IMG/VR virus record: IMGVR_UViG_3300017814_000184
Direction: 5' to 3' (one strand)
From: a virus
DNA length: 21,351 bases
Shown here: positions 15,764 to 19,040 of the stretch, one piece after another
Position numbering within the stretch: the stretch's first letter is position 1
Layout: every line of letters starts with the position of its first letter
Program-made: the position numbers and the translations under genes
The notes under the pieces: generated by a model
What the model was told of the DNA's origin: nothing
The model's input: the letters and a program-made list of their open reading frames with translations, nothing else
Database searches by the model: none

Positions 15764-16126
15764 TCATTTGTAGTGCCACTGCTGGTATCTGTCCTCGGTC
15801 ATGGTTTTGGAGTCATGACATGGTTTGCAGAGTGCTTGCCAGTTGCTCTCGTCCCAGAAGAGATGCTGGTCGCCTCGATGCGGAACGATGTGGTCGACCA
15901 CGGTTGCCTTGACCAGCTTGCCCTCGGCGAAGCAACGAACGCACAGCGGGTGCGCCTTGAGGTACCTTGCTCTTGCTCTGCGCCAACGGCTGTCGTAACC
16001 TTTCTCCTTTGTGCCACGGACATCATGGGTGTGGAGCGGAGCGTGTTCCTCGCAGTACATCGTGCCGTGGGGAACCAGTCTGTTGCAGCCGGGGTGCTTG
16101 CACGGTGTGTTCGGACGATGCGGCAT
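15764..16126 (-). CDS. HNH endonuclease (terminase-associated)
   Basis: GYDSRW, HPLCVRC, VVDHIVPHRGD and NWQALCKPCHDSKT motifs. Confidence 0.93.
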   Translation of the reverse strand: MPHRPNTPCKHPGCNRLVPHGTMYCEEHAPLHTHDVRGTKEKGYDSRWRRARARYLKAHPLCVRCFAEGKLVKATVVDHIVPHRGDQHLFWDESNWQALCKPCHDSKTMTEDRYQQWHYK

Positions 16127-16129
16127 GGC

Positions 16130-17179
16130 TTACTCCTCCCAGGGGAGGCCAGTCTTTCCGAAATGTCCGTAGGAACTGACCTCGTTGTAATCCACATCCA
16201 GCAAGCCGAGTCTTTCAATGATACCTCTCGGTGTGAGGTCATACGAACCACGGATGTAGTCGATGATGGCACCAACAGGGATATGCTCTGTCTGGAAGCA
16301 GTCAACAGCCAGGGACACGGGAGCCGCAACGCCAATCGCATAGGCAAGCTGAACCTCGCACTTGTCGGCGTAACCCACAGCCACGACGTCCCGCGCAATC
16401 TTTCTCGCCATGTAGGCACCAGAGCGGTCAACCTTGGTGGGGTCTTTGCCGGAGAACGCACCGCCACCATGACGGCACATACCGCCGTAGGTGTCAGCTA
16501 TGATTTTCCTACCTGTCAGCCCAGTGTCCGCAAAGGAGGAACCGATGACAAAACGGCCAGTCGGGTTGACCAGCCGCTCGAAGTCGGTGTTCAAATCATA
16601 GTCCTGCGCGGAGGTTTCCATGACAGCTTCGACCAAGGGACGGATGTCCTCGACCATCGTGTCCTCACGGTGTTGTGTGCTTATGAGGAAGGTGGTAATC
16701 CGATGCTGGTCATAGTCAAAGGTAACCTGTGCCTTGGCATCGGGCAGAAGTCTTGGCTCGTTCAGTTCCCGCAGCAATCGCAGCGCATGGGTGGCGACCG
16801 CAAACGGGATAGGCAGCAGTTCGGGTGTTTCGTTGGAAGCATAGCCGAACATCATGCCCTGGTCACCAGCACCTTGATTGCCGTCCACACCAAGGGCAAT
16901 GTCGGCACTCTGCTTGCTTACAAGCACAGTCAGCCGATATTGCTCGGCGTTGGGGAGACCAATGCGGGAAAGCACATCCTTTACCAAGGCCGAATAGTCC
17001 GGCTCGTGATTGCTGGTGATTTCGCCCGCAATGGTGATGTCGTAATCCTTGATAAGGCACTCCGCAGCCACACGGCTGTTTTTATCATGACGGAGACAGT
17101 CTGTAACAATGGCATCGGAGATTTGGTCGCAGATTTTGTCGGGGTGTCCGCATGACACCTGTTCGCTTGTAAATATCAT
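16130..17179 (-). CDS. metK: S-adenosylmethionine synthetase
   Basis: FTSEQVSCGHPDKICDQISD, GAGDQG, GLTGRKII and GGGAFSGKDPTKVDRS signatures; ATG at 17179 after GAAAGGAG. Confidence 0.96.
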   Translation of the reverse strand: MIFTSEQVSCGHPDKICDQISDAIVTDCLRHDKNSRVAAECLIKDYDITIAGEITSNHEPDYSALVKDVLSRIGLPNAEQYRLTVLVSKQSADIALGVDGNQGAGDQGMMFGYASNETPELLPIPFAVATHALRLLRELNEPRLLPDAKAQVTFDYDQHRITTFLISTQHREDTMVEDIRPLVEAVMETSAQDYDLNTDFERLVNPTGRFVIGSSFADTGLTGRKIIADTYGGMCRHGGGAFSGKDPTKVDRSGAYMARKIARDVVAVGYADKCEVQLAYAIGVAAPVSLAVDCFQTEHIPVGAIIDYIRGSYDLTPRGIIERLGLLDVDYNEVSSYGHFGKTGLPWEE

Positions 17180-17186
17180 ATTCGCG

Positions 17187-17233
17187 CTCCTTTCGTATGT
17201 ACGAGCGGTGGAAAGGATGAAAGCACCGCCCGT
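17187..17233 (-). promoter_or_regulatory. Candidate RBS-sequestering pseudoknot in metK leader
   Basis: 10-bp stem 17233-24/17210-01; loop segment UCCUUUC (17217-11) is complementary to the RBS GAAAGGA (17194-88). Confidence 0.5.
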
Positions 17234-17235
17234 CC

Positions 17236-17271
17236 AAAAAGAAAAGAGCCGGAGGATTGCTCCTCGGCTCT
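17236..17271 (-). terminator. Terminator-like hairpin in the late leader
   Basis: mRNA AGAGCCGAGGA-GCAA-UCCUCCGGCUCU followed by UUUCUUUUU. Confidence 0.65.
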
Positions 17272-17285
17272 CGTTCCTATCTTGG

Positions 17286-17340
17286 CAAGTATAATAATAA
17301 CACACCCGAAAATAAAAAACAGTATCACCTTAGTACCATC
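17286..17340 (-). promoter_or_regulatory. Putative activator-dependent late promoter
   Basis: TATACT -10-like hexamer (17293-17288), no good -35, short imperfect direct repeat GGTACT..GATACT upstream; lies at the head of the metK-HNH-morphogenesis genes. Confidence 0.4.
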
Positions 17341-17357
17341 TTTTTTCAATTTACAAC

Positions 17358-17432
17358 ACTTTAGCGTTAGGTCTAATTCTTATGTGGCTGTTTGAATGAT
17401 TTCTCCTCGGATATACTAACTTTAGCGTTAGT
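17358..17432 (+). promoter_or_regulatory. Direct-repeat operator-like sites upstream of XRE gene
   Basis: ACTTTAGCGTTAG at 17358-17370 and 17419-17431; the second sits in palindrome ACTAAC-N6-GTTAGT overlapping TATACT (17412-17417). Confidence 0.55.
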
Positions 17433-17457
17433 TGTAATCTTAAAGGAGGTGTTGCGA

Positions 17458-17775
17458 ATGAATGCAAAAGCGTTTGGTGAACGGCTCAAGGCAGTCCGTG
17501 AGGCAAAAGGAATGACACAAGAACAGCTTTCTGCCCTGGTTGATATTGGCCCGAACCATCTCAGCGCACTGGAGCGTGGTGTAAAGCTGCCCAGGTTAGA
17601 AACTTTTGTTGCCATCGCAAATGCCCTCGGTGTTTCTGCGGATATGCTGCTTTTTGAAGCGGTCAGTGAATCATATCAAGGAAAGGCCTGCGAATTGTCG
17701 GATTCCATTGCGGGACTGCCACCTAAAGATAGAACCCGCATTTTGAAAACCATCGAGGCAATTATTAAGGCATAA
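17458..17775 (+). CDS. XRE-family HTH transcriptional regulator
   Basis: GERLKAVREAKGMTQEQLS...LSALERG...IANALGVSADMLL; AAGGAGGT RBS before the ATG at 17458. Confidence 0.92.
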   Translation: MNAKAFGERLKAVREAKGMTQEQLSALVDIGPNHLSALERGVKLPRLETFVAIANALGVSADMLLFEAVSESYQGKACELSDSIAGLPPKDRTRILKTIEAIIKA

Positions 17776-18130: not shown

Positions 18131-18168
18131 AAAGGCAGTCGACCAACCTAATGGTCGACTGCCTTTTT
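18131..18168. terminator. Likely bidirectional terminator between convergent genes
   Basis: 15-bp perfect inverted repeat AAAGGCAGTCGACCA/TGGTCGACTGCCTTT. Confidence 0.8.
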
Positions 18169-18533
18169 CAGTTATATGCCTCCACGGCACCAATCTGTAT
18201 CTGTAATGCACGGGTAATCTGCTCCATGACATGGGTATCGCTGACGGTGCCTTTGTACTCCCGAAGCTGGCACTTGTCGATGGCTTCGACCTGTTCAGCG
18301 AGAGCAAGGCTGTTCTTGCTCAGCCCGCTTCCGCTGCTGCGAGGGACAAACACATGGGTGGGCATAAACCGCTTTTTGTATGTCCGACCAGTAAGCGGTA
18401 CAACGGTAATGACGGGAGAATGCTCATTCGCTCGGTTATTGCTGATGACCATAGCAGGACGGACACCGCTCTGTTTGCAGCTATCGGTATCGGCTCCAAA
18501 ATCAACATAGTAAATATCTCCACGCTTGCACAT
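18168..18533 (-). CDS. PemK/MazF-family endoribonuclease
   Basis: KRGDIYYVDF...Q.GVRPAMVISN...N..SPVITVVPLT and S.ALAEQV..IDK motifs. Confidence 0.9.
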   Translation of the reverse strand: MCKRGDIYYVDFGADTDSCKQSGVRPAMVISNNRANEHSPVITVVPLTGRTYKKRFMPTHVFVPRSSGSGLSKNSLALAEQVEAIDKCQLREYKGTVSDTHVMEQITRALQIQIGAVEAYN

Positions 18534-18548
18534 AAAGGAACTCCTTTC

Positions 18549-19040
18549 TCAACTCAATAAGTAAGCGACCATTTTGTTCTCATGGTCATCGTATAATTTG
18601 GACAGTTCCGCAATGGCGGCTCGGCGTTGGCGGCTGACCGTCATTCGGCCAATGTGGTGGTGGGCTTCAATCTCATCCCAGGTCAGACCGTCAAAAAGCA
18701 TCGACCTCAACACCCTGCCCGGTTCGCCCTCCAGGGAACGGACGGCACTCTCAAAGAAGCGTAGCTCCTCGGCCAGTTCGAGGTATCTGCGGGTAAGGTA
18801 TTCATACCAGTCCCGATTGGCTTCTTCCATTCGCTCGTGGTAACTGAGCGCGATAGATTCGGGCTTGTTGGAAATATTGCTGGTCTGGACACGCTCTCCA
18901 TCCGGCTGACTGAAGTTCATGGATTCAATCATCTCATCCTCGGCGATGCCCTTGAAGTCCTTGATTTGCAGTTCGAGGCAACGAGCCTCCACTTTCATTT
19001 TGGAATATTCCTTTATCAGTTTTTCGACCCTTTCGCTCAT
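18549..19040 (-). CDS. ArpU/RinA-like phage transcriptional activator
   Basis: C-terminal sigma-region-4-like HTH (LTWDEIEAHHHIGRMTVSRQRRAAIAEL); position at the end of the replication module. Confidence 0.6.
   Translation of the reverse strand: MSERVEKLIKEYSKMKVEARCLELQIKDFKGIAEDEMIESMNFSQPDGERVQTSNISNKPESIALSYHERMEEANRDWYEYLTRRYLELAEELRFFESAVRSLEGEPGRVLRSMLFDGLTWDEIEAHHHIGRMTVSRQRRAAIAELSKLYDDHENKMVAYLLS

What the first reader, a model, noticed from the sequence alone, without database searches (positions are those of the whole stretch)
17180..17233. RBS-sequestering H-type pseudoknot directly upstream of phage metK: candidate SAM-responsive translational switch
Seen (mRNA): ACGGGCGGUG-CUUUCA-UCCUUUC-CACCGCUCGU-ACAUAC-GAAAGGAG-cgcgaau-AUG. 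Stem 1 is 10 bp (one G-U), the loop heptamer UCCUUUC pairs perfectly with the RBS GAAAGGA, and a UUU-containing L1 is placed to form U.A-U triples on stem 2. CGCUC/GAGCG offers a competing pairing. Known: SAM-II, SAM-V and SAM/SAH riboswitches are small pseudoknots that occlude the RBS, often upstream of metK. The sequence does not match those consensuses as I recall them. Inference: an undescribed feedback element tuning phage SAM supply, or a protein-controlled translational operator. The 6-nt L3 is short for a 10-bp stem, so stem 1 would need to fray.
Basis: partly seen in the sequence, partly recalled or inferred. Interest (0 to 1): 0.75.

Follow-up and report, generated by a model that had tools for sequence, protein, structure and literature searches.

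The report
Ribosome-site-hiding leader of phage late operon
The hairpin-plus-pseudoknot in front of the phage metK gene is a real, evolutionarily conserved RNA leader absent from Rfam, but related phages place the same leader before an HNH nuclease gene with no metK, so it is a general brake at the head of the late (packaging) operon rather than a SAM sensor.

Summary
Observation confirmed. On the minus strand, 17233-17180 holds a 9-10 bp hairpin whose 13-nt loop carries UCCUUUC, complementary to the metK ribosome-binding site GAAAGGA. Rfam has no match. The stem covaries strongly across 45 distinct relatives (92% paired, 8 of 9 pairs with double changes). Loop, U-rich L1 and linker GUACAUA are conserved.

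Among 57 distinct variants the leader precedes an HNH endonuclease gene directly in 27, metK in 17 and a small ORF in 8. One locus keeps a metK deletion scar. More distant phage metK genes lack the leader.

The element sits behind a conserved late promoter (tandem activator repeats, extended -10) and a promoter-proximal intrinsic terminator. It heads the HNH, methylase, terminase and head operon of Heliusvirales-like Clostridia prophages. Whatever the first cistron is, it is translationally coupled to HNH.

Best reading: a translational brake or lock on the first late cistron and so on the nuclease. What opens it, if anything, is unknown. I tested cleavage by the neighbouring MazF-like nuclease at the conserved UACAU and found no support. 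This scan has noted other ribosome-site-occluding leaders before phage nuclease genes on other DNA.

The parts
17320..17337 (-). Tandem direct repeats GGTACTAA / GGTGATACTG, the presumed binding sites of the late activator
   Evidence: every family member has 2-4 tandem copies of a phage-specific 7-9 nt unit (GTGTACT, GTAGACT, GGAACT and others) ending in ACTG, about 15 nt before the -10 region. Ltr-type activators of Gram-positive phages use such repeats (PMC3753634). Binding is inferred.
17281..17304 (-). Late promoter core: TGTGTTATTAT (extended -10), a second TATACT hexamer and the conserved TGCCAAG start region
   Evidence: Conserved block TGTGnTATnAT-TAWAMT-TGC(C)AAGAA in the alignment of 24 diverse loci. 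The consensus scan gives a promoter-like site nearby at 17349-17321, upstream of this block and sharing no bases with it. The transcription start site is not mapped.
17236..17270 (-). Promoter-proximal intrinsic terminator: stem GAGCCGAGGA / TCCTCCGGCTC followed by UUUUCUUUUU
   Evidence: A hairpin plus U-tract of variable sequence holds this position in every relative. The U-tract is also complementary to the SD.
17224..17233 (-). Stem 1, 5' arm (ACGGGCGGUG)
   Evidence: Covariation; 35 distinct arm pairs among 57 variants.
17211..17223 (-). Loop CUUUCAUCCUUUC: L1 (CUUUCA) plus the anti-SD UCCUUUC (17217-17211), which resembles the 3' end of 16S rRNA
   Evidence: Eleven of the 13 loop positions are invariant or nearly invariant while the stem varies (seed alignment A1). 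Variants are listed.
17201..17210 (-). Stem 1, 3' arm (CACCGCUCGU)
17195..17202 (-). Conserved linker GUACAUAC (L3), containing UACAU at 17201-17197
   Evidence: UACAU is present in the linker of 48 of 57 distinct variants. Its role is unknown.
17187..17194 (-). Shine-Dalgarno GAAAGGAG of the first late cistron; 3' strand of the proposed stem 2
16130..17179 (-). metK (SAM synthetase, 349 aa), an optional cargo gene behind the leader
   Evidence: It is absent from many relatives that keep the leader. L130 carries a deletion scar.
15764..16126 (-). HNH endonuclease (120 aa), the gene the leader most often governs; its start lies 3 nt after the metK stop
18549..19040 (-). Sigma-70 region-4-like late regulator (phrog_36; LtrA-like)
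   Evidence: All matches are weak; its role as activator of this promoter is inferred.

Best explanation
This is a cis-acting leader RNA at the head of the late operon of a temperate Clostridia phage of the Heliusvirales type. The operon runs HNH, DNA methylases, amidoligases, terminase, portal, head and tail. Transcription starts at an activator-dependent late promoter and meets an intrinsic terminator within about 50 nt. RNA that reads through then folds a GC-rich 8-10 bp hairpin. The hairpin loop presents a mimic of the 16S rRNA anti-Shine-Dalgarno sequence (AUCCUUUC). The Shine-Dalgarno sequence emerges 6-9 nt after the hairpin and is captured by that loop, giving an H-type pseudoknot. The U-rich L1 is in register for major-groove triples. 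The ribosome-binding site of the first cistron is thereby occluded, so translation of that cistron is held low. The HNH nuclease is either that cistron or is translationally coupled to it, so it is held low as well. metK is cargo inserted between the brake and HNH in some lineages, and the element does not sense SAM. Shown: conservation, stem covariation, strand, genomic position, and independence from metK. Inferred: stem 2 and the triplex, the braking effect, and whether the lock is constitutive or opened by a factor.
For: The structure is real and lies on the sense RNA: covariation and a G-U to A-C ratio of 22:5. The loop anti-SD is conserved while 35 different stem sequences occur. Full 7/7 pairing to a downstream SD is possible in 52 of 57 variants. 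Loci with an inserted linker (L136, L138) still keep a complementary SD. The element is single-copy per phage genome and always lies between the late promoter/terminator and the first late gene. The census of downstream genes is HNH 27, metK 17, small ORF 8. The first cistron is coupled to HNH: in the window metK TAA-GCC-ATG, and in L103 the small ORF overlaps the HNH start by 11 nt. Neighbouring lineages occlude the same initiation region by other means: a nested CUCCU/AGGAG hairpin in L135, a hairpin over the AUG in L141, and a stem arm CACCUCC next to AGGAGGU in L465. This points to selection for occlusion itself. The operon content is shown.
Against: Stem 2 cannot be proven by covariation, because the SD and a 16S-like anti-SD are each constrained independently. 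Shuffled pyrimidine-rich loops pair almost as well (mean -8.3 vs -10.9 kcal/mol), and the terminator U-tract pairs with the SD equally well (-11.3). Five of 18 other SDs in the window also pair 7/7 with the loop. L014 keeps the loop but has a poorly matching SD, and L179 has a central mismatch. L3 (6-8 nt) is tight for spanning a 9-bp stem. The strong conservation of L3 (GUACAUA) is not explained by a simple brake. There are no expression data.
Confidence: 0.6

Rival explanations
1. A conditional switch. The pseudoknot is a lock opened by a trans-acting factor: an unknown small ligand, an RNA-binding protein, or an endoribonuclease that cuts the conserved single-stranded linker. The nuclease could be a MazF/EndoA-type enzyme at UACAU, or RNase Y. 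A cut would separate the anti-SD hairpin from the SD.
For: L1 and L3 are conserved far beyond what base pairing needs. UACAU is present in 48 of 57 variants. The window encodes a PemK/MazF toxin at 18168-18533 (Pfam 8.6e-26). Its closest solved relatives are S. aureus MazF and B. subtilis EndoA, which cut U^ACAU (PMC7781912). In phages phi11 and 80alpha a late 5' end maps 23 nt before terS, just after a terminator (PMC3152322; layout).
Against: Phage MazF and the linker UACAU do not co-vary. The L131 and L133 contigs (85% and 79% complete) have UACAU but no PemK gene. L184, L179 and L168 have PemK but no UACAU. UACAU is not depleted in the window (12 observed against about 15 expected). No candidate ligand follows from the gene context.
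Confidence: 0.2
2. The hairpin has another RNA-level job and SD pairing is incidental. It could be a 5' stabiliser or processing signal for the roughly 17-kb late mRNA. It could also be a loading site for a processive antitermination factor, nut/put/EAR-like, that acts on downstream terminators.
For: It sits at the start of a long operon, right after a terminator. The loop is conserved even where SD pairing is weak, as in L014. Complementarity between a pyrimidine loop and a purine SD arises easily.
Against: The loop is specifically 16S-like (UCAUCCUUUC). SD proximity is kept in nearly all variants. Neighbouring lineages replace the element with other SD or AUG occluders. The hairpin lies downstream of the only conserved terminator, so it cannot act on that one.
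Confidence: 0.12
3. A SAM- or SAH-responsive riboswitch giving feedback on phage SAM supply.
For: The H-type pseudoknot with a U-rich L1 and SD occlusion resembles SAM-II, SAM-V and SAM/SAH architecture. It lies before metK in this window. The late operon also encodes two SAM-dependent DNA methylases.
Against: No match to any Rfam SAM class, even at permissive thresholds. About 70% of distinct variants precede non-metK genes. metK in other phage lineages lacks the element. Sensing SAM to gate a packaging nuclease has no rationale.
Confidence: 0.03
4. A DNA-level element: a late promoter embedded in the hairpin (CTTTCA-N15-18-TACATA), or a protein or packaging site.
For: The spacing of the two conserved blocks is promoter-like, at 15-18 nt. 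T4 nuclease and lysozyme genes have late promoters inside RBS hairpins (from memory).
Against: Compensatory stem changes and the G-U over A-C asymmetry indicate an RNA helix on one strand. TACATA lacks the key final T of a -10 element, and a start 7 nt downstream would fall inside the SD. A much better conserved extended -10 lies upstream of the terminator.
Confidence: 0.04

Closest known systems
RBS-sequestering leader hairpins of phage T4 genes (e/lysozyme, soc, 49) and of the homing endonuclease I-TevI
   Same: A local structure in a phage mRNA leader hides the Shine-Dalgarno sequence of a gene that must be made late or sparingly. The gene governed is often a nuclease.
   Different: Those are simple hairpins, opened by starting a shorter transcript from a late promoter inside the hairpin. 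Here the anti-SD is displayed in a hairpin loop (pseudoknot topology), no embedded promoter is evident, and there is no sequence relationship.
SAM-II (RF00521), SAM-V (RF01826) and SAM/SAH (RF01727) riboswitches
   Same: A small H-type pseudoknot, a U-rich L1 placed for major-groove triples, the SD within the 3' strand of stem 2, and (in this window) a position before metK.
   Different: No covariance-model match. No consistent association with methionine or SAM genes. No evidence for a ligand.
Lambdoid late control region PR'-tR' (the short terminated RNA gives sRNA StxS in Stx phages, PMC7547250)
   Same: A late promoter followed almost at once by an intrinsic terminator, ahead of the whole late operon of a temperate phage.
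   Different: No Q-like antiterminator has been identified. The regulator here is a sigma region-4-like protein with tandem repeat sites, and an extra SD-occluding module follows the terminator.
Ltr (RinA, ArpU, LtrA/B/C) late-activator systems of Gram-positive phages (PMC3753634, PMC3152322)
   Same: An activator gene lies just upstream, direct repeats follow it, and a terminator lies between the regulator and the first packaging gene. The 80alpha rinA-terS gap shows the same order of parts.
   Different: Those papers describe no structured leader and place the promoter after the terminator. The hairpin with the anti-SD loop is specific to the clade studied here.

Membership tests
SAM-II / SAM-V / SAM-SAH riboswitches | Match to the family covariance model (conserved binding-core nucleotides) | tested here: not met
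   cmscan at gathering score on the whole window gave 0 hits. At E<=10 on 16900-17700 the only hit was a spurious msr match elsewhere. Six relatives at E<=5 gave nothing at the element.
SAM-II / SAM-V / SAM-SAH riboswitches | Consistent location upstream of SAM or methionine metabolism genes | tested here: not met
   Of 57 distinct variants, 27 precede HNH, 17 metK and 8 a small ORF. Distant phage metK genes lack the element.
SAM-II / SAM-V / SAM-SAH riboswitches | H-type pseudoknot that occludes the SD | tested here: inconclusive
   Stem 1 is proven. Stem 2 is compatible in 52 of 57 variants but not separable from ribosome-binding constraints.
SAM-II / SAM-V / SAM-SAH riboswitches | Specific binding of SAM or SAH with a structural change | not testable with these tools
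   Needs in-line probing or ITC.
RBS-sequestering leaders of phage nuclease or late genes (T4 type) | A complementary segment pairs with the SD of the downstream gene | tested here: met
   UCCUUUC with GAAAGGA in the window; conserved across the family.
RBS-sequestering leaders of phage nuclease or late genes (T4 type) | An embedded late promoter gives a shorter, unlocked transcript | tested here: inconclusive
   Only a weak CTTTCA-N16-TACATA arrangement exists, and its start would fall inside the SD. No transcript data are available.
RBS-sequestering leaders of phage nuclease or late genes (T4 type) | The governed gene is a nuclease or late function | tested here: met
   HNH follows directly or is coupled. 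The operon continues into terminase and head genes.
Lambdoid PR'-tR'-type late leader | Promoter followed by an intrinsic terminator before the first late gene | tested here: met
   Conserved extended -10 block, then hairpin and U-tract, in all aligned loci. The transcription start is not mapped.
Lambdoid PR'-tR'-type late leader | A Q-type antiterminator loaded at the promoter | not tested
   The regulator at 18549-19040 only resembles sigma region 4. No Q-like fold was searched for beyond that.
LtrA (sigma70_r4) late-activator systems | A sigma region-4-like protein encoded upstream of the packaging operon, with direct repeats after its gene | tested here: met
   Weak sigma70 matches, source names, and fold matches to region 4 of sigma factors with TM about 0.3-0.8 on 55-66 residues but E>0.05. 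Repeats are shown. Binding was not tested.

The most novel reading that the evidence does not exclude
The pseudoknot is a nuclease-gated (or ligand-gated) lock. Late-gene translation is switched on when a sequence-specific endoribonuclease cuts the conserved single-stranded UACAU linker and detaches the anti-SD hairpin from the SD. The nuclease would be the phage's own MazF-like protein, encoded two genes upstream, or the host's EndoA. A toxin-type RNase would then be acting as a positive regulator of phage morphogenesis.
Probability: 0.08. Interest if true: 0.8.

Novelty: new variant of a known kind. Interest (0 to 1): 0.42.

Why it matters
Heliusvirales-type prophages are among the most widespread phages of the human gut (PMC11283538), yet how they gate their late genes is unstudied. 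This work defines a compact, conserved late control region: activator repeats, an extended -10 promoter, a promoter-proximal terminator and an SD-occluding pseudoknot. It also adds an uncatalogued structured RNA with strong covariation that could be entered in Rfam. It shows that the phage metK gene, present in about 59% of these genomes, is cargo dropped behind an existing brake and not a feedback-regulated gene. That corrects an attractive but wrong riboswitch call. The leader is small enough for direct reporter and probing tests.

Tried and rejected
- Rfam membership: no hit.
- Own-genome search: no genome is held for this window.
- MazF link. The phage PemK gene does not co-occur with the linker UACAU across contigs, and there is no UACAU depletion in the window. 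I kept it only as a low-probability rival.
- Promoter inside the hairpin: rejected on stem covariation, the G-U/A-C asymmetry, and a -10 that lacks its final T.
- N-terminally extended metK. The GTG-started 391-aa ORF 16130-17305 would run through the terminator and hairpin. I rejected it because homology starts at MIFTSEQ and the same leader precedes unrelated genes.
- Covariation proof of stem 2. MAFFT and model alignments misregister the SD because of a 1-nt indel. Register-free counting shows only pair-preserving A-to-G changes, which ribosome binding would also allow. Loops with CUCC (L023, L141, L465, L475) go with GGAG(G)-type SDs and are suggestive only.
- The weak retron msr hit at 17356-17400 (E 0.51) falls on the XRE operator repeat and is spurious.
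- Fold search of the regulator: only region-4-like partial matches, none with E<=0.001.

Full report
**What is there.** The feature lies on the minus strand. Reading 5' to 3' from 17337 down to 17177, the parts are:
- two tandem repeats, GGTACTAA and GGTGATACTG;
- a conserved TGTGTTATTAT-TATACT-TGCCAAG block;
- an intrinsic terminator (stem 17270-17246, U-tract to 17236);
- the hairpin ACGGGCGGUG / CACCGCUCGU with the 13-nt loop CUUUCAUCCUUUC;
- the linker ACAUAC;
- the Shine-Dalgarno sequence GAAAGGAG;
- seven more bases, then the AUG of a 349-aa MetK (TIGR01034, 2.8e-120).

**Context.** The window is a temperate-phage segment. On the minus strand the gene order is as follows:
- an SNF2 helicase;
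- a sigma region-4-like regulator (18549-19040);
- a PemK/MazF-like toxin (18168-18533);
- the leader, then metK;
- an HNH endonuclease (15764-16126);
- a ParB-fused amino-methylase and a C5-methylase;
- amidoligases and a gamma-glutamyl cyclotransferase;
- small and large terminase, portal, protease, major head and tail genes.

The leader therefore heads the late operon. The closest deposited phages belong to Candidatus Heliusvirales, from human faeces. The paper describing that order reports metK in 58.9% of genomes and mentions no riboswitch or leader (PMC11283538).

**Is the structure real?** Alone, the 71-nt stretch folds no better than shuffles (z -1.0). Comparison settles the question.
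- metK-anchored and HNH-anchored searches of viral contigs, plus pattern scans of viral and genome collections, gave 57 distinct variants.
- A covariance model built from 22 of them finds one copy per phage genome.
- On 45 distinct aligned sequences stem 1 is 92% paired.
- 8 of 9 pairs show double compensatory changes.
- The covariation score is 0.651, against 0.168 for shuffles (0 of 500 reach it) and 0.03-0.10 for slid registers.
- Thirty-five different arm pairs occur.
- G-U cells outnumber A-C cells 22 to 5, so selection acts on the metK-sense RNA and not on DNA.
- Rfam has nothing here, in the window or in six relatives.

**Stem 2.**
- The loop is nearly invariant while the stem changes. 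It reads like the 3' end of 16S rRNA.
- The heptamer can pair 7/7 with a downstream SD in 52 of 57 variants. This includes loci where 30-70 nt have been inserted between hairpin and SD.
- L1 begins CUUU, in the correct parallel register to lay C+.G-C and three U.A-U triples on GAAA (inference from the sequence).
- All SD changes seen are A to G opposite loop U.

Three things stop me treating this as proof:
- the ribosome would tolerate the same changes;
- shuffled pyrimidine loops pair nearly as well, and the terminator U-tract pairs equally well;
- five other SDs in the window also match the loop.

Stem 2 is therefore well motivated but not demonstrated.

**Not a SAM sensor.** The same module of promoter, terminator, hairpin, GUACAUA and SD directly precedes an HNH orthologue (56-75% identical) with no metK in many loci. 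In the L103 group it precedes a 60-codon ORF that overlaps the HNH start. Among distinct variants the count is HNH 27, metK 17, small ORF 8. L130 keeps the first codons of metK as a scar 60 nt before HNH. Phage metK genes of 65% identity or less have other leaders and no model hit.

**What it most likely does.** In the window the HNH start lies 3 nt after the metK stop. The first cistron, whatever it is, is therefore coupled to the nuclease. Sister lineages lack this hairpin but occlude the same initiation region in other ways:
- L135 has a nested CUCCU/AGGAG hairpin;
- L141 has an 11-bp hairpin over the AUG;
- L465 has a stem arm CACCUCC beside AGGAGGU.

More distant HNH phages have only promoter, terminator and SD. 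I read the element as a translational brake or lock on the first late cistron, and so on the packaging nuclease. It sits on top of a promoter-proximal terminator. Together these would keep late functions silent in the lysogen. Confidence is about 0.6 for this mechanism. It is about 0.9 for the narrower claim that this is a conserved late-operon leader RNA independent of metK.

**What might open it.** The linker carries UACAU in 48 of 57 variants. That is the cleavage site of B. subtilis and S. aureus MazF (PMC7781912). The phage MazF-like protein is closest to exactly those enzymes. The idea fails the tests available here:
- contigs with UACAU lack PemK (L131, L133);
- contigs with PemK lack UACAU (L168, L179, L184);
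- UACAU is not avoided in the window.

Host EndoA or RNase Y remain possible, but that is speculation.

**Upstream control region.** An alignment of 24 diverse loci shows the following, in order:
- phage-specific tandem repeats ending in ACTG;
- a roughly 15-nt spacer;
- TGTGnTATnAT plus a second -10-like hexamer;
- TGC(C)AAGAA;
- the terminator.

The regulator upstream resembles sigma region 4 only weakly. This fits the LtrA class of late activators, which use direct repeats (PMC3753634). The rinA-terS gap of phage 80alpha has the same order of parts. That may bear on the unexplained distance of more than 155 bp between RinA sites and the mapped 5' end (PMC3152322).

**Earlier notes of this scan.** These describe other, unrelated SD-occluding leaders before phage nuclease genes. 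They agree in kind with this reading but are not evidence for it.

Noticed in passing
window 18168-18533 (-): A PemK/MazF-type toxin gene (Pfam 8.6e-26) directly follows the sigma-like late regulator, with no recognisable antitoxin beside it. Its closest solved relatives are the UACAU-specific MazF of S. aureus and EndoA of B. subtilis. The gene is conserved at this position in most close relatives.
   Followed up: partly
window 17281-17337 (-); alignment: The late promoter region is conserved: 2-4 tandem, phage-specific direct repeats (GTGTACT, GTAGACT, GGAACT and others), an extended -10 (TGTGnTATnAT), a second -10-like hexamer, then a promoter-proximal terminator. This implies antitermination or a released short RNA, as at lambdoid PR'-tR'.
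   Followed up: partly
L382 1420-1610 (phage 80alpha rinA-terS gap): The order of parts is the same as in this family: repeats TGGCAGT x2, TATTATGAT, a strong terminator, then the SD. The published RinA-dependent 5' end lies about 15 nt after the terminator U-tract. Ltr-type activators may therefore work through promoter-proximal terminators more generally.
   Followed up: no
window 17358-17370 and 17419-17431 (-), with XRE gene 17458-17775 (+): Two perfect copies of CTAACGCTAAAGT flank the promoter region of a divergent RstR-like XRE repressor. This cassette is inserted between the MazF gene and the late promoter, and relatives such as L103 and L104 lack it. One copy abuts the late-activator repeats, so the repressor may also touch late-promoter control.
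   Followed up: partly
L130 2441-2500: The leader is followed by MIFEQASCVH..., a remnant of the metK N-terminus, only 60 nt before HNH. This is a deletion scar showing loss of metK with the leader retained.
   Followed up: partly
L116 619-693 and 2260-2334 (same contig as L222): The whole module of promoter, terminator, hairpin and small ORF is tandemly duplicated about 1.6 kb apart. Each copy lies before a paralogous small ORF (MDTAKM... and MDTEKM...).
   Followed up: no
window, whole (minus strand counts): Several 5-mers are completely absent although 17-30 copies of each are expected. All that contain ACGT or CTAG are missing, as are CGACG and GACGC. This suggests restriction-site avoidance alongside the two orphan methylases.
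   Followed up: no
L135 2450-2495; L141 80-113; L465 upstream of 401: Related HNH phages hide the same translation start in other ways. L135 has a nested anti-SD hairpin, L141 a hairpin over the AUG, and L465 a stem whose 3' arm is itself CACCUCC. This looks like convergent occlusion of the first late start site.
   Followed up: partly
window 16133-16150 (-): The metK C-terminal codons (..L P W E E stop) read CCUCCCCUGGGAGGAG. The HNH Shine-Dalgarno sequence therefore lies inside metK, next to its own complement. This would make HNH translation depend on ribosomes finishing metK.
   Followed up: no
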